A stretch of DNA of 64,000 bases from an uncultured delta proteobacterium (GTDB lineage Bacteria; Myxococcota_A; Polyangia; Fen-1088), in assembly GCA_963796685.1 (NCBI GenBank), contig CAWCMR010000025.1, positions 1,312,001 through 1,376,000 on the forward strand, written 5' to 3'. Position numbers and translations under genes: made by a program. This document shows positions 26,283 to 32,657 of the stretch, one piece after another. Each line of letters opens with the position of its first letter. Position 1 is the first letter of the stretch. The notes beneath the pieces were generated by a model. It searched no databases and had not been told where the DNA came from. It worked only from the letters and a program-made list of their open reading frames with translations.

Positions 26283-27155
26283 ATGACGCTTCGACCTATC
26301 GAGCAGATCATCCGGCCTCAGCCCACGGTTGAAGGAGCGGGCGTACACCTCATCCGCAGCATCGGCACGGGCCAACTGACCAACCTCGATCCGTTTCTGC
26401 TGCTCGACCACTTCGAGTCGTCGGCGCCTTCGGACTACCGGGCCGGCTTTCCCTTTCACCCCCACCGCGGCATCGAAACCGTGACCATTCTGCGCACCGG
26501 GCAAGTCCGGCACGGCGATTCGCTGGGACACAAGGGCACCATCGACGGCGGCGACATCCAATGGATGACCTCGGGCAGTGGCATCCTTCACGAGGAAATG
26601 CCGGTCGTGCGGCCCGAGGGCATTTCGGGCCTGCAGCTGTGGCTCAACCTGCCCGCCCGGGAAAAGATGACCCGGCCGAAGTACCGCGATCTGCGCGCCG
26701 ACAAGTTGGAAGAACGAGCCACCGACGATGGCGCAAAAATTCGAGTCATCGCGGGCGAGGCCGACGGCGGCCGCAGCAAAGGCCCGGTGGAGGGGCTTTC
26801 GGTGGCGCCGAAGTTCATCGACGTGAATCTGCCCGCGGGCGCGGTTTTTCGCGAAGAGGTGCCGGCGGGCCACACCGCGTTCGCCTACCTTGATCGCGGC
26901 AAGGTGGATTTCGGCACGGGCGCCGACGTGCAGTCCGTCGAGGGGCCAGCCCTGGTGGTGTTCGGCGAGGGCGATTTCATTCGCGCCCGGGGCGGGTCGA
27001 AGGGCGGGCGATTTCTGCTCGCCGCTGCCCGTCCGCTCGGCGAGCCCATCGCGCGCTACGGACCGTTCGTGATGAACACGCGCGAAGAGATCGAGCAAAC
27101 GCTGGACGAATTGCGTAGCGGAAAGTTCATCCGCGAGGAAGCCACCGACGCGTGA
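26283..27155 (+). CDS. Pirin family protein
   Basis: DPFLLLDH, FPFHPHRGIETVT, QWMTSGSGILHEE, QLWLNLP, YGPFVMNT. Confidence 0.95.
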   Translation: MTLRPIEQIIRPQPTVEGAGVHLIRSIGTGQLTNLDPFLLLDHFESSAPSDYRAGFPFHPHRGIETVTILRTGQVRHGDSLGHKGTIDGGDIQWMTSGSGILHEEMPVVRPEGISGLQLWLNLPAREKMTRPKYRDLRADKLEERATDDGAKIRVIAGEADGGRSKGPVEGLSVAPKFIDVNLPAGAVFREEVPAGHTAFAYLDRGKVDFGTGADVQSVEGPALVVFGEGDFIRARGGSKGGRFLLAAARPLGEPIARYGPFVMNTREEIEQTLDELRSGKFIREEATDA

Positions 27156-27728
27156 AACGGCCGAGGTGCGGTACGGTAGCGAAACGATGGATTGCCCTGC
27201 TCGTGCTCGCGCTCCCAGCATGCAAACCCGGTATATCCCCCTCGCCGGTCCGGGAATCGTCGCCGGCTCGCACTGAAGAGACGGCCGCACCTCTTCACGC
27301 GCGGGGAGCATCGGCCGCGATGCGTGACAAGAACGAGATCTTCCCCGAGGCCGCGCCGCCGTACGTGGCCGCGGGGCCCATTCAGCACGGTCCGGGCTAC
27401 GTGCGTCGCACCTACACCTCAGGCGAAAAGAGGGTGGAGATCACCATCGCGACCACGGGCCGGGAGCCAGGCGCGTTCGAGCGCTGGGTGGCGGGCTCGG
27501 CGAGCTACCCACAAGCCCCGCTCGCGCTGCCAGCGTCCCAGGCCAATGGCTTCTTCACCTGCGCCTCCGAGCGCGCCAATGCCCCCTGCGACCTGCACAT
27601 CCAGCTTCGTTCGGGGTTTCACATCGAAGCCATGGGCAACGGCCGCGTCCCGCGCGCCGACTTGCTCGAGCTTCTCCGCCCATGTCCCCCTGGGCGCCCT
27701 GTCGGATGCGACCTTCGCCAAGCTATAG
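27152..27728 (+). CDS. Hypothetical lipoprotein; probable frameshift near 27676 artificially fuses it to the next gene
   Basis: Lipobox LPAC; GTGA overlap with pirin stop; the +1 frame continues AHVPLGALSDATFAKL* to 27728. Confidence 0.55.
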
Positions 27729-27799
27729 CGTCCCACAAGTCTTCCTTCTTTCTGTTTCCGCGCGCCAGCGTGTCTCTCTTAGCGGAAGGAGAGACCACC

Positions 27800-28795
27800 A
27801 TGACACGTTTCGTTGCCTACACTGCCTTGTTCTCTACCCTGACCGTTGGGCTATTCGCCTGCCAACCCAAGGACGAGCCGGGCTCGGAGTTCGCCACCGG
27901 GGTACCACGCGCAAGCACGGTGGCCATGGCCGTCCCCGGCTCGGACAACAAGGCCCTGACGGTCGAGGGAAGCAACTACGCCCTCATGGGGCAACTCGCC
28001 GACTGGTACGTCACCACCCGCGCCGTCACCGTGACGGTCAATGCCGGCGCCCTGGCGGTGGGCTTGCTGGTCAAGTTGGTGACCAACAACCCGGCAACGA
28101 GCGTCACCTTGAATGCGGCAGTGTGGGGTCCCTGGCAATCTCCTCTCGATCCCATCGAATGGAAGGTCACGATCACGCGTACCGCGTCGCACCAGTATGC
28201 GTACATGTTCCAAGGACGCGACAAGCACGACCAGACCGCGCCGTTCGTCACCGTGCTCTCGGGAACGCACGCGCCCGGTCTCGATGCGCAGGGCAACGAA
28301 ATGGAAGGCTTTGGCGCGGGAAGCTTCACGCTCGATTGGGACGCGCGCGCCACGTTGCCCCAACCGGACAGCAACGTGGGTACCGCTAACTACACCTATG
28401 ACCACATGAGTCCCGACGCCGTGGTCAATATCGCGGCCAAGTTCCGCCAGGTCAAAGACGACAATCAACCTGGCAAGCTGGTCGATGTAGACTATGCCTT
28501 CGTTCAGAATCCTGGCGCGGATGGCAGCATGGATTTCCTCTACGACGTTCCCGCGAACGCGACGTCTGCCGGCGGCCTCGGCAAGGTGCACAGCCGGTGG
28601 CTGTGGAGCGGCGCCGGACGCTCGGATGTCAGCGTCACCACCACGGACAGCGCGCTGACCTACACCCTGAGCGAGTGCTGGGACACGAATTACCTCAGCG
28701 TCTACAAGTCGGTTCCCATTTCGACCAGCGCGACGGACAATTACGGCAGCGTCTCGAGCTGCGTGTTCCAGGACGCGCAATTCTCGAACCTTTGA
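27800..28795 (+). CDS. Lipoprotein A of ECF-caspase module (unknown function)
   Basis: RBS GAAGGAGA, ATG 27800, lipobox LFAC; paralogous to 31725-32657. Confidence 0.8.
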   Translation: MTRFVAYTALFSTLTVGLFACQPKDEPGSEFATGVPRASTVAMAVPGSDNKALTVEGSNYALMGQLADWYVTTRAVTVTVNAGALAVGLLVKLVTNNPATSVTLNAAVWGPWQSPLDPIEWKVTITRTASHQYAYMFQGRDKHDQTAPFVTVLSGTHAPGLDAQGNEMEGFGAGSFTLDWDARATLPQPDSNVGTANYTYDHMSPDAVVNIAAKFRQVKDDNQPGKLVDVDYAFVQNPGADGSMDFLYDVPANATSAGGLGKVHSRWLWSGAGRSDVSVTTTDSALTYTLSECWDTNYLSVYKSVPISTSATDNYGSVSSCVFQDAQFSNL

Positions 28796-28797
28796 TC

Positions 28798-29346
28798 ATG
28801 AGCGGCCGCCAGACCCCGACGTTTCAGATCATCCCGGGCGAAAAGGGCCTGGCGGCCTCGGATGCGCGCGAGCAGCTGCGCGAGCTTTACACACGATACG
28901 GCGCCAGTGTTTTCGGGCGCTGTGCCTACATTCTCAAGGATCGCAGCAAGGCCGAGGATGCCATGCAAGACGTATTCGCCAAGGCCCTCACCCACTACGC
29001 GGGCTTTCGCTCGGAATCCTCGCCTCTCACCTGGCTTATCAAGATCGCCACCCACCACTGTCTCAACATCCTGCGCGCCGATCGCGCCGCCTGGCACGAA
29101 CGTTTCGAGCGCGAGACCCGCGCGCGCAACGCCAGCGAGCCCGGCCCGCAGGTTTTCGAGATGCGCGAGCTGGTGGCCAAGATGCTGTCCCTCGTCGACC
29201 AAGAGACCCAGGCCGTGGCCATCCACTACCACGTCGACGAAATGACCCTGGAGGAGGTCGCCGCGCTCCTCGGGCGGTCGGTGCCGACGGTGCGCAAGCG
29301 CCTGGGCGAGTTTGCCGCGGCCTGCGGCAGGGAGTTTTCGCCATGA
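28798..29346 (+). CDS. ECF RNA polymerase sigma factor
   Basis: Region 2 AEDAMQDVF...LTWLIKIATHHCLN; region 4 MTLEEVAALLGRSVPTVRKRL. Confidence 0.92.
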   Translation: MSGRQTPTFQIIPGEKGLAASDAREQLRELYTRYGASVFGRCAYILKDRSKAEDAMQDVFAKALTHYAGFRSESSPLTWLIKIATHHCLNILRADRAAWHERFERETRARNASEPGPQVFEMRELVAKMLSLVDQETQAVAIHYHVDEMTLEEVAALLGRSVPTVRKRLGEFAAACGREFSP

Positions 29347-30137
29347 CCCTGGTCGAGAATCACGAGACGCCGTCGAGTCACCTGGCCGAGCTGGCCCTGC
29401 GCTGCTACCGCGCGGGCGAGTTTCCGCCCGAAGCCTGCGCCGAGATGGAGCGTCACCTCGCGAGCTGCCCCGCCTGCCGGGCCAAGATGCGCGTGCTGGT
29501 CGAAGAGCAGCGTGCGTTCGAGCGCGAGATCCCGTTCGAGCGCTTCGCCGGCGGTGTGGAGCGCGCCCAGCGCGTGCCGCGGCAGCGTCCGCGACGGGCG
29601 TGGGCTTTCGGACTTTCCGGGGTGCTGGCCGCCGCAGCGGTGGCCTTGTTCCTCGTGCGCGTGTCCTCGCCCGGGAACCATCAACACAACCGCAGCAAGG
29701 GCAGCGCCGTGGAGGCCACGGCACGCATCGCCTCGACGGGAAATTCATCGCAGCGGATCTCCCCGCCCGGATCGCAAGAGGTGCTGGACCCGGGCGACCG
29801 GGTTCGTCTCGGCTACAAGACCGCGGACCCGCGCTACCTGGCGGCCGTCTCCGTCGACGACAGCGGTGAGGTGACCCCGCTCTATCCCGAACGAGGTCCG
29901 GCTCTCCCGGTGCCCGCCACTCTAGAAACTGTCTACTTGCCCGACAGCCTGGAGTTCACGGGCGCGGGCCGCGAACGGGTCTTCCTCTTCCTGGCGCGAA
30001 CGCCCTTCGACCTCGAGGCCGCCGAGCAGGCCGTGCGGTCCGCGCACCAGGCGGCCAAGGGCGATCTCTCGGCCCTGCCGAATCCCGCCTTCGCTGGCGG
30101 ACAAGACGTCTTCTCCTGGCTGTTTCGCAAGCCATGA
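29343..30137 (+). CDS. Zinc-finger (zf-HC2) transmembrane anti-sigma factor with periplasmic DUF4384-like domain
   Basis: HLASCPAC (HxxxCxxC); TM AWAFGLSGVLAAAAVALFLV; LDPGDRVRL...VDDSGEVTPLYP; ATGA overlap with sigma. Confidence 0.8.
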   Translation: MTLVENHETPSSHLAELALRCYRAGEFPPEACAEMERHLASCPACRAKMRVLVEEQRAFEREIPFERFAGGVERAQRVPRQRPRRAWAFGLSGVLAAAAVALFLVRVSSPGNHQHNRSKGSAVEATARIASTGNSSQRISPPGSQEVLDPGDRVRLGYKTADPRYLAAVSVDDSGEVTPLYPERGPALPVPATLETVYLPDSLEFTGAGRERVFLFLARTPFDLEAAEQAVRSAHQAAKGDLSALPNPAFAGGQDVFSWLFRKP

Positions 30138-31735
30138 CCACCCTGCGAGCCATCGCGCGGGCCGGGCCGGTGTTGGCGCTACTGCTTTGCGCGGCGCCGA
30201 CGCAGGCCGCGGGTCAGCACCGATTCGCGCTCATCGCGGGCAACGACGAAGGCGGCAGCGACACCCGTCCTTTGCGCTTTGCCGCCGAGGACGCGCGCAA
30301 GGTGTACGCCGTGCTCACGCAGCTCGGGGGCGTGGCATCGGGCGATGTCACCATGATCCTCAACCAGTCGGCGGGTGAATTTTGGCGCGCCCTTGGCGAC
30401 CTCGAGGGGCGCATGGCCCAGGCCAAGCAGCGCGGCGAGCGGGCACTTTTCATCCTCTACTATTCGGGCCACGCCAAGGACGGCGAGCTGCGCCTGGGCG
30501 ACTCGCGCATTCGGCTCGATCAATTGAAGGCGCGCTTGTCGGCGGCGCCGGCCGACATCCGCATCGGCGTGTTCGATTCGTGCCACTCGGGCATGGTGAC
30601 CCGCACCAAGGGCGCGCGCCACGCGCCGGCGTTCCAGATCGAAGCCGCGGGCTCGGAAGAAACCCGCGGCCTGGTGCTACTGTCCTCGTCCAGCGCCGAC
30701 GAGGACGCGCAAGAATCGGATGAGATTGGCGGCAGCTACTTTTCCCACTACCTGGTCAGCGGTTTGCGCGGCGATGCCGATCGCTCGCGCGACCGCCGCG
30801 TGACCCTGTCCGAGGCCTATGCCTACGCCTACGCGCGCACGGTGGCGGACACGGCTGAAAGCGCCGCTGGCGCCCAACACCCGACCTTCAGCTACGACTT
30901 CCAGGGCAACGCCGATCTGGTGCTGACCGATTTCGCCAGCCGGCGCGAGGGCATCTACGTCCCCGGCACGGCGCCCGCGGGGATCTACTACATCGTGGAT
31001 GGCAATGGCTTCATCGCGGCCGAGATTCAAAAAGCTGCCGACGGCGATCGACAGATCGCCTTGCCCGCCGGCCGCTACCACGTCCGCCGCCGGCTCGCCG
31101 ATCGCCTGCGCATCGGCGAGATCCAGATCGCCTCGGGTCAGCTCGCCACCCTCGACGAATCCCGGCTGCGCGACGCCCCCTTCTCCGACGACCCGGTGAA
31201 GGGCGCGATTCGCGACGAGGGCGCGCATTTGAGCCTCAGCCTGGGCGGCATGATGCAGTCGTTCTTCGATGGACCCACGCGCGACAGTCTCTTCCCACCC
31301 ACTGGCATGGTGGGCGTGGAGCTCGAGGTGCGCGATTTCTTCCGCCACGGCTTCATCTGGGGACTCGACGTGGCCAGCGGCGGCGCGCACGGCCAGGTCG
31401 ATCGCTATGGCTCGCTCTTGCCCTTCCGTTTCAGCGAGGTCACGGCGGGAACCACGCTGGCCGCGGAGTGGCGTTTTCACTTCGGCGACGTCGGCGTGTT
31501 CGCGGGCCTGCGCCTGGCGGTCGTGCTCATGAGCCGCAAATTCGACGATCCCGCCATTCCCGATCAGTTCTTCGCCACCTTCACGCCGGGCCTGGTCGGA
31601 GGTTTCCGCTATCGTCTGTCACGAAGCTTTGCCCTGCTGACACGCGGCCGTGTCCATTACTTGCTTTACAACGTCGACGAAGACCGCTCCCTCGGTTATT
31701 GGGAGCTTTCCGCGGGGGTTGCCTATGATTTCTGA
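30134..31735 (+). CDS. Exported caspase-family (peptidase C14) protein with C-terminal beta-barrel
   Basis: Signal peptide; RFALIAGN, LRFAAEDA, YYSGH (catalytic His), DSCHSG (catalytic Cys); C-terminus SAGVAYDF resembles a beta-signal. Confidence 0.85.
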   Translation: MTTLRAIARAGPVLALLLCAAPTQAAGQHRFALIAGNDEGGSDTRPLRFAAEDARKVYAVLTQLGGVASGDVTMILNQSAGEFWRALGDLEGRMAQAKQRGERALFILYYSGHAKDGELRLGDSRIRLDQLKARLSAAPADIRIGVFDSCHSGMVTRTKGARHAPAFQIEAAGSEETRGLVLLSSSSADEDAQESDEIGGSYFSHYLVSGLRGDADRSRDRRVTLSEAYAYAYARTVADTAESAAGAQHPTFSYDFQGNADLVLTDFASRREGIYVPGTAPAGIYYIVDGNGFIAAEIQKAADGDRQIALPAGRYHVRRRLADRLRIGEIQIASGQLATLDESRLRDAPFSDDPVKGAIRDEGAHLSLSLGGMMQSFFDGPTRDSLFPPTGMVGVELEVRDFFRHGFIWGLDVASGGAHGQVDRYGSLLPFRFSEVTAGTTLAAEWRFHFGDVGVFAGLRLAVVLMSRKFDDPAIPDQFFATFTPGLVGGFRYRLSRSFALLTRGRVHYLLYNVDEDRSLGYWELSAGVAYDF

Positions 31736-32657
31736 ACGTCTCGGTCCATGGTCGCTGGTCCTGCTCGCCGCCATTGGCGCGAGCGCCTGCGGAAACTATT
31801 CCAACGAGGATCTCGATTTTCAGCTCGCCCTGCCCGAGCAAAGCGACATCGAAGCCAAGATGCAACTATCGGTCACGCGTGCGGACTCGGCCGAGTACTA
31901 CCTTGCGACCCGCGGCGCGATTGCCACCTTCAACACCATGGTCGCGGATCTGGTCGGCCTCATCGAGGTGGTTCGCGGCACCACGCCGACCTCGCGCCAG
32001 GGTGACCAACGCACGTGGGGGCCGTTCCCGAGCGACAAGTATCCCGACTGGGAGATCCGCGTGGTCATGCAGCGGTCGACGGTTTCCTCGACGCTGCTGA
32101 AGATGGACTACTGGGTAGAGCTACGACCGGTCGGCCAGGGCGATTCGGCCTGGGTCGATTTTCTGACCGGCACGTACACCTCTGGCGGTAGCGCACGCAC
32201 GGGCACGGGCGACATCCAATTGCTTGCCAGCACGGCCCGCGCAGCGGGCTACCCCGTCGACGACGATGCCGGGCTCCGCGATCTCGACCACCTCGACGTC
32301 ACCTACGACAACGTCGCCTATCCGACCAGTGTGATCATGGACATCGTGAATGTGGCAACAGCCACGACGCGAACCAGGCACTATGAGTACTATCAGAATC
32401 AGGACGGGTCGGGCCGCATGCTCTTCAACTGGCAGGGCACGACCGACACCGGCGTGTCGATCACCGCGGCCATGACTTCGCAATGGCTGGGCTCGGGAGC
32501 AGGCCGCGCCGATCTGACCGCCGCTCTCACGCCCAACCTTCCCAATCAGTCCACCACCCTCGGCACCGACTGCTGGGGCGTCGACACCGTGGCCACCTAT
32601 TCCTATCGCTTGCAAGGCGACACGACGACCGGCTCGCCCGCATCCTGTTTGTTCTAG
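31725..32657 (+). CDS. Lipoprotein B of ECF-caspase module (unknown function)
   Basis: Lipobox ASAC; overlaps caspase stop; paralog of lipoprotein A. Confidence 0.8.
   Translation: MISERLGPWSLVLLAAIGASACGNYSNEDLDFQLALPEQSDIEAKMQLSVTRADSAEYYLATRGAIATFNTMVADLVGLIEVVRGTTPTSRQGDQRTWGPFPSDKYPDWEIRVVMQRSTVSSTLLKMDYWVELRPVGQGDSAWVDFLTGTYTSGGSARTGTGDIQLLASTARAAGYPVDDDAGLRDLDHLDVTYDNVAYPTSVIMDIVNVATATTRTRHYEYYQNQDGSGRMLFNWQGTTDTGVSITAAMTSQWLGSGAGRADLTAALTPNLPNQSTTLGTDCWGVDTVATYSYRLQGDTTTGSPASCLF

What the first reader, a model, noticed from the sequence alone, without database searches (positions are those of the whole stretch)
27800..32657. Five-gene lipoprotein / ECF sigma / zinc anti-sigma / outer-membrane caspase / lipoprotein module: candidate caspase-triggered trans-envelope signalling system
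Seen: five co-oriented genes that are tightly coupled (2-bp gap, two ATGA overlaps, one 11-bp overlap), sitting between pirin/proC and the convergent mutM. The caspase keeps its His (YYSGH) and Cys (DSCHSG), has a signal peptide and ends in amphipathic strands with a terminal Phe. The anti-sigma has HxxxCxxC, one TM helix and a periplasmic domain. Established: ECF sigmas are released by regulated proteolysis of membrane anti-sigmas (RseA/DegS/RseP, FecR), and C14 peptidases use a His-Cys dyad. Inference: an envelope-anchored caspase acts as the site-1 protease or sensor for this anti-sigma, with the lipoproteins as partners or outputs. That would be a non-death, non-defence role for a caspase. 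Similar loci probably exist in other myxobacteria; I know of no mechanistic characterisation but could not search.
Basis: partly seen in the sequence, partly recalled or inferred. Interest (0 to 1): 0.8.

Follow-up and report, generated by a model that had tools for sequence, protein, structure and literature searches.

The report
Sigma-factor operon with outer-membrane caspase
A tightly packed five-gene operon, conserved across myxobacteria, joins a stress-type sigma factor and its membrane inhibitor to an active caspase-like protease anchored in the outer membrane and two related lipoproteins; it probably carries a signal across the cell envelope, but nobody has tested how.

Summary
Five co-oriented genes lie at 27800-32657 with the stated overlaps: lipoprotein A, an ECF sigma factor, a zinc-type anti-sigma factor, a caspase and lipoprotein B.

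- **Anti-sigma:** one membrane helix and a DUF4384-like periplasmic domain.
- **Caspase:** a secreted C14 protease with an invariant His/Cys pair, a beta-sandwich and an OmpA-like 8-strand barrel.
- **Lipoproteins:** A and B are paralogues.

The order is kept in 24 of 24 loci with flanks and in 60 of 79 named myxobacterial loci. Of the other 19, 13 are cut by contig ends. A conserved two-part promoter motif sits before the first gene.

The core trio (sigma, anti-sigma, caspase) is much wider. There are four copies in this genome, and 32 of 40 sampled paralogue loci carry it.

That the caspase cuts the anti-sigma remains inference. Support comes from strict linkage, translational coupling, the literature's DUF4384-protease link, and a shared R-x-K-G motif in the caspase's own disordered loop and beside the anti-sigma's sensor domain. 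There is no direct evidence.

Sigma/metacaspase operons were noted in 2012, and DdvA is a fused precedent. I call this a new variant of a known kind. This scan has found the same module before on other DNA.

The parts
27746..27777 (+). Promoter-like two-part motif: TTTC at 27749-27752, a 17-nt gap, then GTGTC at 27770-27774. Probably the ECF-dependent promoter of the operon.
   Evidence: The motif is present upstream of lipoA in 25 of 25 aligned upstream regions. It is the best PWM hit of the whole 64-kb window (28.2 bits; next best 13.7) and of the whole genome (next best 24.4; control maximum 18.8). In 61 of 68 further loci, and in 17 of 17 loci from named cultured strains not used for training, the top hit of the locus lies within 300 nt upstream of the first cassette gene. 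Where lipoA is missing, the motif sits before the ECF gene. Function not tested.
27784..27793 (+). Shine-Dalgarno-like GGAAGGAGAG, 6-15 nt before the lipoA ATG
   Evidence: Read directly from the sequence. GGAG-rich stretches are also seen before the ATG in the orthologous upstream regions.
27800..28795 (+). lipoA: lipoprotein of 331 aa with lipobox ...GLFAC; first gene of the operon; paralogue of lipoB; no Pfam or NCBIfam family
   Evidence: The lipobox Cys is conserved in orthologues. Invariant residues shared with lipoB are the lipobox Cys, WGP, and two further Cys. lipoA is missing in 5 of 79 loci with adequate flanks.
28798..29346 (+). ECF (group IV) sigma factor, 182 aa
   Evidence: Pfam Sigma70_r2 at 48 bits, and Sigma70_r4_2 at 25.0 bits, just under its 25.7 cut-off. 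TIGR02937 at 71 bits against a cut-off of 42.9. The nearest solved structure is E. coli sigma-E at 30.8 bits.
29343..30137 (+). Anti-sigma factor, 264 aa. N-terminal zinc-type anti-sigma domain (H38, C42, C45; nt 29454-29477). One membrane helix at about residues 86-106 (nt 29598-29660). A variable linker. The motif N-R-S-K-G at residues 116-120 (nt 29688-29702). A DUF4384-like periplasmic domain at residues 148-217 (nt 29784-29993).
   Evidence: The alignment profile matches ChrR (E 7e-4), RslA and, weakly, the DdvA N-terminus. DUF4384 matches 23 of 36 family members at E<=0.01. Two paralogues in the same genome reach the Pfam cut-off.
30134..31735 (+). Secreted C14 caspase-like protease, 533 aa. 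Signal peptide at about residues 1-25. Caspase fold at 28-257 (nt 30215-30904), with His113 (nt 30470-30472) and Cys150 (nt 30581-30583). Disordered loop 159-172 starting with K159-G160. Beta-sandwich at 263-348 (nt 30920-31177). Eight-strand OmpA-like barrel at 365-533 (nt 31226-31732), ending in Phe.
   Evidence: Pfam. H113, C150 and D148 are invariant in 39 of 39 aligned sequences. AlphaFold2 model with pLDDT 83.2. Foldseek hits to caspases, MALT1 and Yca1, and to OmpA, NspA, Ail and OmpX.
31725..32657 (+). lipoB: lipoprotein of 310 aa with lipobox ...GASAC. The mature N-terminus C-G-N-Y-S-N-E-D is conserved. Its start overlaps the caspase gene by 11 bp.
   Evidence: The 11-bp overlap is kept in 18 of 25 loci. 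Model with pLDDT 89.9 and pTM 0.84: one long helix plus about 14 antiparallel strands. No Foldseek match at E<=1e-3. The best VIA-align match is OspA at Z 9.8, rmsd 3.5, 160 aligned, barely above the usual background of 7-8.

Best explanation
This is a self-regulated signalling operon that spans the cell envelope.

**Resting state.** The ECF sigma factor is held at the inner membrane by its zinc-type anti-sigma factor. The anti-sigma's DUF4384-like domain projects into the periplasm.

**The protease.** The caspase-like protease is exported, and its C-terminal 8-strand barrel anchors it in the outer membrane. Its active caspase domain and beta-sandwich therefore hang into the periplasm. The two paralogous lipoproteins, probably in the outer membrane, are its partners. 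lipoB is translationally coupled to the caspase.

**The switch.** On an unknown envelope signal, the caspase cuts the anti-sigma just outside its sensor domain, most likely at the conserved R-x-K-G. That site resembles the caspase's own inter-subunit loop. A site-2 protease then releases the sigma factor, which transcribes the operon from the conserved TTTC-N17-GTGTC promoter.

**What is shown:** gene content, folds, catalytic residues, conservation, linkage and the promoter motif.

**What is inferred:** topology, the promoter's dependence on this sigma factor, the roles of the lipoproteins, and above all the cleavage step.

In layout it works like cell-surface signalling (sigma factor, inner-membrane anti-sigma, outer-membrane barrel protein with a periplasmic N-terminal domain), but the outer-membrane partner carries its own protease.
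For: **1. Linkage**
- The five genes keep their order in 24 of 24 loci with flanks and in 60 of 79 further loci.
- The 4-bp ECF/anti-sigma overlap is kept in 17 of 24 loci, and the 11-bp caspase/lipoB overlap in 18 of 25.

**2. The trio travels as a unit through duplications**
- In this genome, all 4 Pfam-detectable C14 genes sit directly after an ECF/anti-sigma pair, and all 3 DUF4384 matches are those anti-sigmas.
- Of 40 paralogue loci from about 15 other families of the class, 32 have ECF, anti-sigma and caspase co-oriented, and 2 have the pair divergent.

**3. The protease looks active and periplasmic**
- The His/Cys pair and the Asp two residues before the Cys are invariant in 39 of 39 sequences.
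- It has a signal peptide and an OmpA-like barrel.

**4. Domain logic**
- DUF4384 is reported as often fused to protease domains and as the C-terminal domain of some Csx30 proteins. Csx30 is the caspase-like Csx29's substrate and binds an ECF sigma (bioRxiv 2022.08.17.504292, passage).
- DUF4384 also occurs on cyanobacterial orthocaspases (PMC7475262, passages).

**5. Shared motif**
- K-G, mostly preceded by R-x, is found in 38 of 39 caspase loops, at the start of the model's disordered stretch 159-172.
- It is found in 31 of 36 anti-sigmas, right after the variable linker.

**6. The pair without a sigma factor**
- An anti-sigma-like gene plus a caspase also occur together without an ECF gene in a Myxococcus locus. 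This points to those two as the interacting unit.

**7. Site-2 protease**
- M50 site-2 protease genes are present in the genome.

**8. Promoter**
- The promoter motif moves with the first gene of the operon.

**9. Precedent**
- DdvA has a periplasmic caspase-fold domain proposed to start anti-sigma proteolysis (PMC11506125).
Against: - No result here shows binding or cleavage.
- The motif similarity is short and not statistically significant. The profile-profile comparison aligned exactly these two stretches, but with probability 0.3% and E 0.22.
- Four of 36 anti-sigmas have Met, not Lys, at the proposed P1 position, and one has K-S.
- The basic-residue specificity is inferred from the metacaspase-type D-S-C motif. 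That link is recalled, not tested here.
- The promoter motif has no clear second target in the genome. That is just what one expects if the caspase and lipoproteins are simply the output of the sigma factor.
- Four of 40 sampled paralogue caspases have no ECF or anti-sigma next to them.
- Three of 25 orthologous anti-sigmas lack the zinc-binding Cys residues.
- DUF4384 is below the Pfam cut-off in this protein.
- It is not known whether the caspase domain faces the periplasm or the cell surface.
Confidence: 0.4

Rival explanations
1. Output model. The ECF/anti-sigma pair senses the signal by itself through the DUF4384 domain and is processed by general envelope proteases. The caspase and the two lipoproteins are only the regulated products, for example an outer-membrane-tethered protease for envelope remodelling or quality control together with its substrates or helpers.
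For: The only strong match to the promoter motif in the 7.3-Mb genome is the operon itself. The next hit, at 24.4 bits, precedes no obvious partner gene. The operon's own products are therefore the visible regulon. ECF operons commonly carry their effector genes (general knowledge). lipoA, the first gene after the promoter, can be lost while the rest stays, in 5 of 79 loci.
Against: It does not explain why each duplicated caspase keeps its own private sigma/anti-sigma pair with overlapping stop and start codons. It does not explain why the anti-sigma's sensor domain belongs to a family that the literature finds fused to proteases. It does not explain why the anti-sigma-like gene and the caspase stay together where no ECF gene is present.
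Confidence: 0.3
2. Docking or inhibitor model. The periplasmic DUF4384 domain of the anti-sigma binds the caspase and keeps it inactive or positioned. The signal frees the caspase to cut other envelope targets, perhaps the lipoproteins. Sigma release is a parallel consequence, as in a partner switch, and not the result of caspase cleavage.
For: The linkage evidence is the same as for the main model. DUF4384 occurs in cis on caspase-type proteins elsewhere, which fits a regulatory or docking domain as well as it fits a substrate. The lipoproteins are specific to this cassette: no other copy is found in the genome, and there are no hits beside paralogue trios.
Against: No evidence of binding. 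The conserved K-G next to a variable linker is more easily read as a cleavage site than as a docking surface.
Confidence: 0.15
3. Cell-death or anti-phage defence module. The sigma factor switches on a caspase that kills the cell or a neighbour.
For: Caspase-family proteases act in bacterial defence and death systems. The 2012 survey speculated on a link to developmental lysis in Myxococcus (PMC3501461, passage). ECF-linked caspase systems of conflict type have been described (PMC8195603, passages).
Against: The cassette lies among housekeeping genes. It is inherited with its promoter across two myxobacterial lineages. GC content is about 0.62-0.70 inside the cassette against 0.64-0.73 in the flanks, so there is no island signal. 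PADLOC gives only an 18-bit generic caspase hit. The NCBIfam EACC1-type caspase model scores 57.8 against a cut-off of 140. The protease is exported, not cytoplasmic.
Confidence: 0.07

Closest known systems
Sigma-70-family/metacaspase operons noted by Asplund-Samuelsson et al. 2012 (PMC3501461; abstract and passages read)
   Same: The association is the same: a sigma-factor gene in one operon with a metacaspase, reported for four of five M. xanthus DK1622 metacaspases and for Anaeromyxobacter, Haliangium, Sorangium, Ralstonia and Fibrobacter. The three-gene core found here is that kind of operon.
   Different: In the passages I read, the paper does not describe an anti-sigma factor between the two genes, a DUF4384 domain, the barrel anchor, the flanking paralogous lipoproteins, a promoter or a mechanism. 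It speculated on cell death. Its supplementary tables could not be opened.
DdvS/DdvA of Myxococcus xanthus (PMC11506125, abstract and passages; PMC6061681, passages)
   Same: An ECF sigma factor is held by a single-pass zinc-type anti-sigma. A periplasmic caspase-fold domain with a His-Cys pair is proposed to make the first cut before RseP.
   Different: In DdvA the caspase-fold module is a TPR-CHAT domain fused to the anti-sigma, and is proposed to act in trans within a dimer. Here it is a separate C14 protein anchored in the outer membrane, and the anti-sigma carries a small DUF4384-like domain. Sequence similarity to DdvA is limited to the N-terminal anti-sigma domain (E 0.032). DdvS controls a CBASS/CRISPR island; this cassette shows no such neighbours.
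Cell-surface signalling, FecI/FecR/FecA type (recalled knowledge, not tested here)
   Same: The layout has three parts: an ECF sigma factor, an inner-membrane anti-sigma with a periplasmic domain, and an outer-membrane barrel protein whose N-terminal periplasmic domain faces the anti-sigma. Such trios are multiplied within genomes.
   Different: No TonB-dependent transducer and no FecR-type domain were detected by Pfam. The barrel has 8 strands, and the periplasmic domain is a protease.
Sigma-E/RseA/DegS/RseP regulated proteolysis
   Same: Proposed logic of a site-1 cut in the periplasm followed by an M50 site-2 protease. M50 genes are present. E. coli sigma-E is the nearest solved sigma factor.
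   Different: The proposed site-1 protease is a Cys protease of the caspase fold encoded in the operon and tethered to the outer membrane, not a PDZ serine protease of the inner membrane.
Type III-E craspase: Csx29 (TPR-CHAT) cutting Csx30, which binds an ECF sigma (bioRxiv 2022.08.17.504292, passage; PMC10028731, search listing only)
   Same: A caspase-fold protease cuts a sigma-binding protein in a flexible linker. One group of Csx30 C-terminal domains is DUF4384.
   Different: The craspase system is cytoplasmic, RNA-guided and CRISPR-linked. Here everything proposed happens in the periplasm and no CRISPR genes are nearby.
M. xanthus act operon (actABCD), a lead from earlier notes of this scan
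   Same: In Myxococcus qinghaiensis, one caspase gene follows an anti-sigma-like gene (my HMM, E 9e-16) in a row that begins with a GGDEF protein and a sigma-54 enhancer-binding response regulator. That fits what I recall of actA and actB. The papers I could read say only that actB lies in the actABCD operon and that ActB is an enhancer-binding protein.
   Different: That locus has no ECF gene and no lipoA or lipoB. Whether its fourth gene is ActD was not shown here. The original act papers are not held.

Membership tests
ECF (group IV) sigma-70 factors | Only regions sigma-2 and sigma-4, about 180 aa | tested here: met
   Sigma70_r2 at 48 bits (cut-off 24). Region 4 at 25.0 bits against a cut-off of 25.7. 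TIGR02937 at 71 bits against 42.9.
ECF (group IV) sigma-70 factors | Cognate anti-sigma gene directly downstream and co-transcribed | tested here: met
   4-bp overlap in the window and in 17 of 24 orthologous loci.
ECF (group IV) sigma-70 factors | Assignment to a numbered ECF group with its typical neighbourhood | not testable with these tools
   No ECF-group models are on hand. The main text of the reclassification paper has no mention of caspase, C14, CHAT or DUF4384 (PMC7826278, term search). Its supplementary group descriptions could not be opened.
ECF (group IV) sigma-70 factors | Autoregulated promoter with conserved -35 and -10 elements | tested here: inconclusive
   A conserved two-part motif with ECF-like spacing lies before the first gene. 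Its dependence on this sigma factor was not tested.
Zinc-binding (ZAS) class I anti-sigma factors | H-x3-C-x2-C in an N-terminal helical anti-sigma domain | tested here: met
   Residues H38, C42 and C45. zf-HC2 at 24.6 bits against 22.2. The profile matches ChrR and RslA. However, 3 of 25 orthologues lack the Cys residues, and only 10 of 36 family members match zf-HC2 at E<=0.01.
DUF4384 (PF14326) | Match to the Pfam model above its gathering score | tested here: inconclusive
   The window protein scores 20.9 bits against 27, or 22.9 bits in the genome search. Two paralogues in the same genome score 27.9 and 27.0. 23 of 36 relatives match at E<=0.01.
Peptidase C14 (caspase / metacaspase / orthocaspase) | Pfam model, caspase fold, and a catalytic His-Cys pair | tested here: met
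   49.1 bits against 21.4. H113 and C150 are invariant in 39 of 39 sequences. Foldseek hits to caspases 1, 3, 6, 7, 8 and 9, MALT1 and Yca1, at E 1e-6 to 1e-7.
Peptidase C14 (caspase / metacaspase / orthocaspase) | Proteolytic activity and P1 preference (Arg/Lys for metacaspases and orthocaspases) | not testable with these tools
   There is only the metacaspase-type D-S-C-H-S-G motif with an invariant Asp148. Its link to basic P1 specificity is recalled.
OmpA/OmpX-like 8-strand outer-membrane barrels | Eight antiparallel membrane strands and a C-terminal aromatic residue | tested here: met
   The model has 8 strands at residues 365-532, mostly pLDDT 84-95. Foldseek hits: OmpA (E 3e-9), NspA, Ail and OmpX, with target-normalised TM-scores of 0.63-0.71. 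The protein ends in Phe. Pfam OMP_b-brl scores only 19.9 against 28.7. Membrane insertion was not tested.
Cell-surface signalling (FecIRA type) | TonB-dependent transducer and a FecR-type anti-sigma | tested here: not met
   No TonB-dependent receptor, STN or FecR family was found among the Pfam hits of the five proteins. The resemblance is in layout only.
DdvS/DdvA-type pairs | Anti-sigma with a periplasmic TPR-CHAT domain in the same chain | tested here: not met
   The anti-sigma is 264 aa with no TPR or CHAT hit. The caspase-fold protein is a separate gene product.
EACC1-associated caspase systems | Match to NCBIfam NF047832 above its cut-off | tested here: not met
   57.8 bits against 140. 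Paralogues and a Myxococcus orthologue score 54.8-72 bits.
Sigma/metacaspase operons (Asplund-Samuelsson 2012) | A sigma-70-family gene and a metacaspase gene in one operon | tested here: met
   The description comes from passages of PMC3501461.
Known anti-phage defence systems (PADLOC-DB 2.0) | Matches of the components to a defined system | tested here: inconclusive
   Only the caspase matches a generic 'caspase' model, at 18.1 bits (E 3e-4). The other four proteins give no match.

The most novel reading that the evidence does not exclude
Outer-membrane-tethered periplasmic metacaspases are the dedicated, signal-activated site-1 proteases of a large family of DUF4384 anti-sigma factors. They would cut at an R-x-K-G site that copies the caspase's own activation loop. 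In this five-gene form, two paralogous outer-membrane lipoproteins would act as the signal receivers. That would give bacterial caspase homologues a defined natural substrate and a signalling role rather than a killing role, present in several copies per genome across myxobacteria and, by the literature and earlier notes of this scan, beyond them.
Probability: 0.25. Interest if true: 0.8.

Novelty: new variant of a known kind. Interest (0 to 1): 0.55.

Why it matters
The natural substrates and roles of bacterial caspase homologues are largely unknown. This module offers a concrete, testable pair: one protease, one candidate substrate and one candidate site. The read-out is built in, because the operon has its own promoter.

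If the cleavage model holds, regulated proteolysis of anti-sigma factors gains a new class of site-1 enzyme. Caspase-fold proteases would also gain a signalling role in the bacterial envelope, alongside DdvA and the CRISPR-linked craspases.

The cassette occurs in cultured Corallococcus, Archangium and several Myxococcus species, so the tests are feasible.

Tried and rejected
- **Complex prediction.** Caspase 27-352 with anti-sigma 107-264, both given as alignments, gave 'no answer' (ipSAE 0.02 and 0.01 against a mark of 0.32). Controls were not run. This is no evidence either way.
- **Fold of the lipoproteins.** Foldseek against PDB gave no match at E<=1e-3. VIA-align against 48,161 chains gave OspA (Z 9.8) and parts of many membrane barrels (Z 8-9.7), close to the usual background. 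I draw only 'long curved antiparallel sheet'. The Atlas search gave only unnamed Myxococcota clusters.
- **DUF4384 region searches.** The Atlas search of the region gave nothing usable. A search for longer proteins holding the anti-sigma periplasmic region found one 675-aa metagenome protein that joins it to the caspase. That protein is a single member, possibly a frameshift or gene-calling artefact. I do not count it as a fusion.
- **Profile comparison.** Caspase against anti-sigma family: not significant.
- **Regulon hunt with the promoter PWM.** No convincing second target.
- **RNA evidence.** No RNA holder was listed. Four soil DNA runs of one study hold small shares. No reads were laid.
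- **Non-myxobacterial caspase loci L006-L009.** No ECF or anti-sigma hit with my HMMs.
- **ActD lead.** No paper holds actD/actABCD with Myxococcus and caspase. A review has no mention of it. The 2002 act paper is not held. Database names of orthologues do not include ActD.
- **Literature searches for a prior mechanistic description**. Beyond DdvA, craspase, EACC systems and the 2012 survey, nothing was found. The library lacks most subscription journals, and supplements were closed.
- **Chance juxtaposition** is rejected on conservation.

Full report
**What is in the window**

Five co-oriented genes occupy 27800-32657 on the + strand:

| Gene | Coordinates | Length |
|---|---|---|
| lipoA | 27800-28795 | 331 aa |
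| ECF sigma factor | 28798-29346 | 182 aa |
| anti-sigma factor | 29343-30137 | 264 aa |
| caspase-like protease | 30134-31735 | 533 aa |
| lipoB | 31725-32657 | 310 aa |

lipoB's stop overlaps the convergent mutM by 4 bp. The flanks are P5C reductase and pirin upstream, and Fpg/MutM and RsmA downstream. GC content shows no island.

Between pirin and lipoA lies one more lipoprotein gene. It has homologues in some related loci. Here it seems to change frame near its 3' end, so that an uninterrupted 547-aa ORF runs from 27152 into lipoA.

**What the proteins are**

*Sigma factor.* It is a plain ECF type. E. coli sigma-E is the nearest solved relative.

*Anti-sigma.*
- It has H-x3-C-x2-C (zf-HC2 above the cut-off), one hydrophobic helix and a periplasmic part that matches DUF4384 below the cut-off.
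- Two paralogues in the same genome reach the cut-off. 23 of 36 relatives match at E<=0.01.
- Its family profile matches the anti-sigma domains of ChrR and RslA, and weakly that of DdvA.

*Caspase.*
- It matches Peptidase_C14.
- In an alignment of 39 orthologues and paralogues, His113, Cys150 and Asp148 are invariant.
- Its AlphaFold2 model (pLDDT 83.2) shows a caspase fold (28-257), a beta-sandwich (263-348) and an 8-strand barrel (365-532).
- Foldseek finds caspases, MALT1 and yeast Yca1 for the first part, and OmpA, NspA, Ail and OmpX for the last part.
- With a signal peptide and a terminal Phe, the simplest topology is a barrel in the outer membrane with the protease hanging into the periplasm. 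This is inferred.

*Lipoproteins.*
- They are paralogues. They share a conserved lipobox, W-G-P and two further invariant Cys.
- They match no Pfam or NCBIfam family and have no other copy in the genome.
- The lipoB model is confident (pLDDT 89.9, pTM 0.84): a long helix plus about 14 antiparallel strands. It has no clear structural relative.

**Conservation of the five-gene cassette**

A class-wide search of 301 genomes found full-length caspase orthologues only in the window's own family. Elsewhere the matches covered only residues of about 10-360.

I fetched the flanks of 20 of those orthologues, chosen for contig length before their flanks were seen. I added 5 loci. All five genes stand in the same order in 24 of 24 loci with flanks; the 25th is cut by its contig end. 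Caspase identity goes down to 52%. The outer neighbours (proC, pirin, mutM) vary.

A pattern scan of species-representative genomes added 79 loci, partly the same contigs:

| Result | Loci (of 79) |
|---|---|
| All five genes in order | 60 |
| Lack only lipoA (Cystobacter fuscus, Archangium minus, three Archangium MAGs) | 5 |
| Broken | 1 |
| Cut by contig ends | 13 |

By record title the cassette is present in cultured Myxococcus (qinghaiensis, eversor, dinghuensis, vastator and others), Pyxidicoccus, Corallococcus, Archangium, Cystobacter, Hyalangium, Vitiosangium and Citreicoccus. No record titled M. xanthus was among the best 80 of 266 relatives when a Myxococcus orthologue was the query. 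That is not proof of absence.

Public names for the orthologues are 'caspase family protein', 'DUF4384 / zf-HC2 / anti-sigma factor family protein' (also the odd 'ACP synthase'), 'sigma-70 family RNA polymerase sigma factor' and 'hypothetical protein'.

**The core is a three-gene unit that duplicates as a whole**

The window's genome holds three more ECF / anti-sigma / caspase trios, on contigs C8, C15 and elsewhere on C25, none with lipoA or lipoB. All 4 Pfam C14 matches of the genome are these genes, and all 3 DUF4384 matches are their anti-sigmas.

I also hand-picked 40 non-orthologous caspase loci from the roughly 115 places listed, to spread over about 15 families, before seeing their flanks:

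| Arrangement next to the caspase | Loci (of 40) |
|---|---|
| ECF, anti-sigma and caspase co-oriented and adjacent | 32 |
| ECF/anti-sigma pair divergent | 2 |
| Cut by its contig end, anti-sigma present | 1 |
| ECF gene plus an unrecognised 790-nt gap | 1 |
| Neither ECF nor anti-sigma | 4 |

The C-terminal parts of these paralogues vary from 100 to 450 aa. Many end in barrel-like tails, and 17 of 46 end in Phe.

In Myxococcus qinghaiensis, 9 C14 genes were found.
- One follows an anti-sigma-like gene without any ECF gene, in a row starting with a GGDEF protein and a sigma-54 activator.
- Another trio carries a C14/CHAT protease and a different lipoprotein.

**Promoter**

Upstream of lipoA, all 25 aligned regions share TTTC, a 17-nt gap and GTGTC, 28-92 nt before the start codon.
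- A weight matrix built from them scores the window site (27746-27777) at 28.2 bits. That is the best in the window (next best 13.7) and in the genome (next best 24.4; reversed and complement controls reach at most 18.8).
- In 61 of 68 further loci, the best hit of the whole locus lies within 300 nt before the first cassette gene. The same holds for 17 of 17 loci from named cultured strains that were not used to build the matrix.
- Where lipoA is absent, the motif stands before the ECF gene.

This is what an autoregulated ECF promoter looks like, but it was not tested. No convincing second target was found.

**How it most likely works**

The strict, repeated linkage of each caspase to its own sigma/anti-sigma pair points to a direct functional link between protease and anti-sigma. 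So do the overlapping stop and start codons: 4 bp in 17 of 24 loci for ECF/anti-sigma, and 11 bp in 18 of 25 for caspase/lipoB. A further pointer is the nature of the sensor domain. The literature finds DUF4384 fused to proteases and, in some Csx30 proteins, on the substrate of a caspase-like protease that controls an ECF sigma.

A detail fits a cleavage model.
- The caspase loop just after the catalytic Cys reads T-R-T-K-G-A-R. K-G is found in 38 of 39 sequences, at the start of the model's only long disordered stretch inside the domain.
- The anti-sigma reads N-R-S-K-G directly after its length-variable linker. K-G is found in 31 of 36 sequences, M-G in 4 and K-S in 1.
- The profile comparison aligned exactly these stretches, but without significance (E 0.22).

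I therefore rate 'the caspase and anti-sigma act together in one signalling unit' as likely, at about 0.75. I rate 'the caspase cuts the anti-sigma at this site' at about 0.35-0.4. M50 site-2 proteases are present. The roles of the lipoproteins are open. lipoB's coupling to the barrel-bearing caspase suggests a complex at the outer membrane.

**Rivals**

1. The caspase and lipoproteins are only the output of the sigma factor. The self-contained promoter pattern fits this.
2. The DUF4384 domain docks or inhibits the caspase.
3. It is a death or defence module. This is disfavoured by the housekeeping context, vertical inheritance, export of the protease and the lack of defence-system matches.

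**Comparison with what is known**

- The sigma/metacaspase operon association was noted in 2012 for M. xanthus and other deltaproteobacteria, without the anti-sigma, topology or mechanism in the passages I read.
- DdvA of M. xanthus carries a periplasmic TPR-CHAT domain proposed to start its own proteolysis. Here the caspase-fold enzyme is a separate, outer-membrane-anchored C14 protein.
- ECF54 neighbourhoods with CHAT proteins and EACC-type caspase systems with ECF genes are further relatives of the idea.
- The main text of the ECF reclassification paper has none of the terms caspase, C14, CHAT or DUF4384. Its supplements were closed.
- My searches found no experimental study of this module.

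Earlier notes of this scan describe the same trio and the same five-gene cassette in other genomes, and reach the same reading. I saw them after my own analysis. They added only the ActD lead, which I could test only in part.

**Verdict**

This is a real, conserved operon. It is a new variant of known kinds (ECF/anti-sigma regulated proteolysis; sigma/metacaspase operons), and it makes the question of what bacterial caspase homologues cut directly testable.

Noticed in passing
window 27152-27799: A sixth, upstream lipoprotein gene with its own lipobox lies between pirin and lipoA. It has homologues in L002, L003 and L005. In the window its frame appears to shift near 27665-27690. The homologous C-terminus and a TAG stop at 27726-27728 are in another frame, so the starting frame reads on into lipoA as one 547-aa ORF. 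This is either an assembly error or a real frameshift.
   Followed up: partly
window 31626-31657 (inside the caspase gene, about 100 nt before lipoB): This is the second-best promoter-matrix hit of the window, at 13.7 bits. The same place scores 23.6, 24.6 and 29.4 bits in L105, L106 and L111. It overlaps conserved codons (…R-V-H…), so it may be a coding coincidence or an internal promoter for lipoB. Only 3 of 79 loci exceed 15 bits.
   Followed up: partly
own genome: C8:25211-28850; C15 about 119990-123237; C25:587545-590389: Three further ECF / anti-sigma / caspase trios occur in the same genome, without lipoA or lipoB. The C8 caspase (791 aa) also carries LA_2272/VC2662-type surface repeats.
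   Followed up: partly
own genome C8:649041 (+): This is the only other genome site that clearly beats the control in the promoter-matrix scan (24.4 bits against a control maximum of 18.8). About 370 nt of apparently non-coding DNA follow, and then an ATPase-like ORF of 378 aa. It may be a second target of the sigma factor, or chance.
   Followed up: partly
L267 (Myxococcus qinghaiensis, G301:C10:33200-42400): The gene row is: GGDEF protein, sigma-54 enhancer-binding response regulator, epimerase/GNAT fusion, anti-sigma-like membrane protein with no ECF gene, and a 746-aa C14 caspase. It resembles what is recalled of the act operon that times C-signal production. If so, ActD would be a relative of this anti-sigma family.
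   Followed up: partly
L265 (Myxococcus qinghaiensis, G301:C3:229700-239000): A variant module: an ECF gene, an unrecognised 270-aa gene, a protease matching both Peptidase_C14 and CHAT, and then a lipoprotein with CarboxypepD_reg-like domains whose mature N-terminus begins like lipoB's.
   Followed up: no
protein P0078 (metagenome, 675 aa): A single metagenome protein joins the anti-sigma periplasmic region (83% identity) to the caspase (88%). It is either a natural fusion or a frameshift or gene-calling artefact at the ATGA overlap.
   Followed up: no
L134 / L191 (record titled Comamonas sp. KCTC 72670): A record with a betaproteobacterial name carries the complete myxobacterial cassette at 81% identity to a Myxococcus caspase. 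The record is probably mislabelled or contaminated.
   Followed up: no
orthologues of window 29343-30137 in public records: Several anti-sigma orthologues are named 'ACP synthase' in public annotation. Nothing in the Pfam or NCBIfam results supports that name.
   Followed up: no
anti-sigma residues about 59-77 (window 29517-29573): A strongly conserved cytoplasmic stretch (F-x-R-F-A-G-G-V-E-R-A) lies between the anti-sigma domain and the membrane helix, in all 25 orthologues. It has no assigned role.
   Followed up: no
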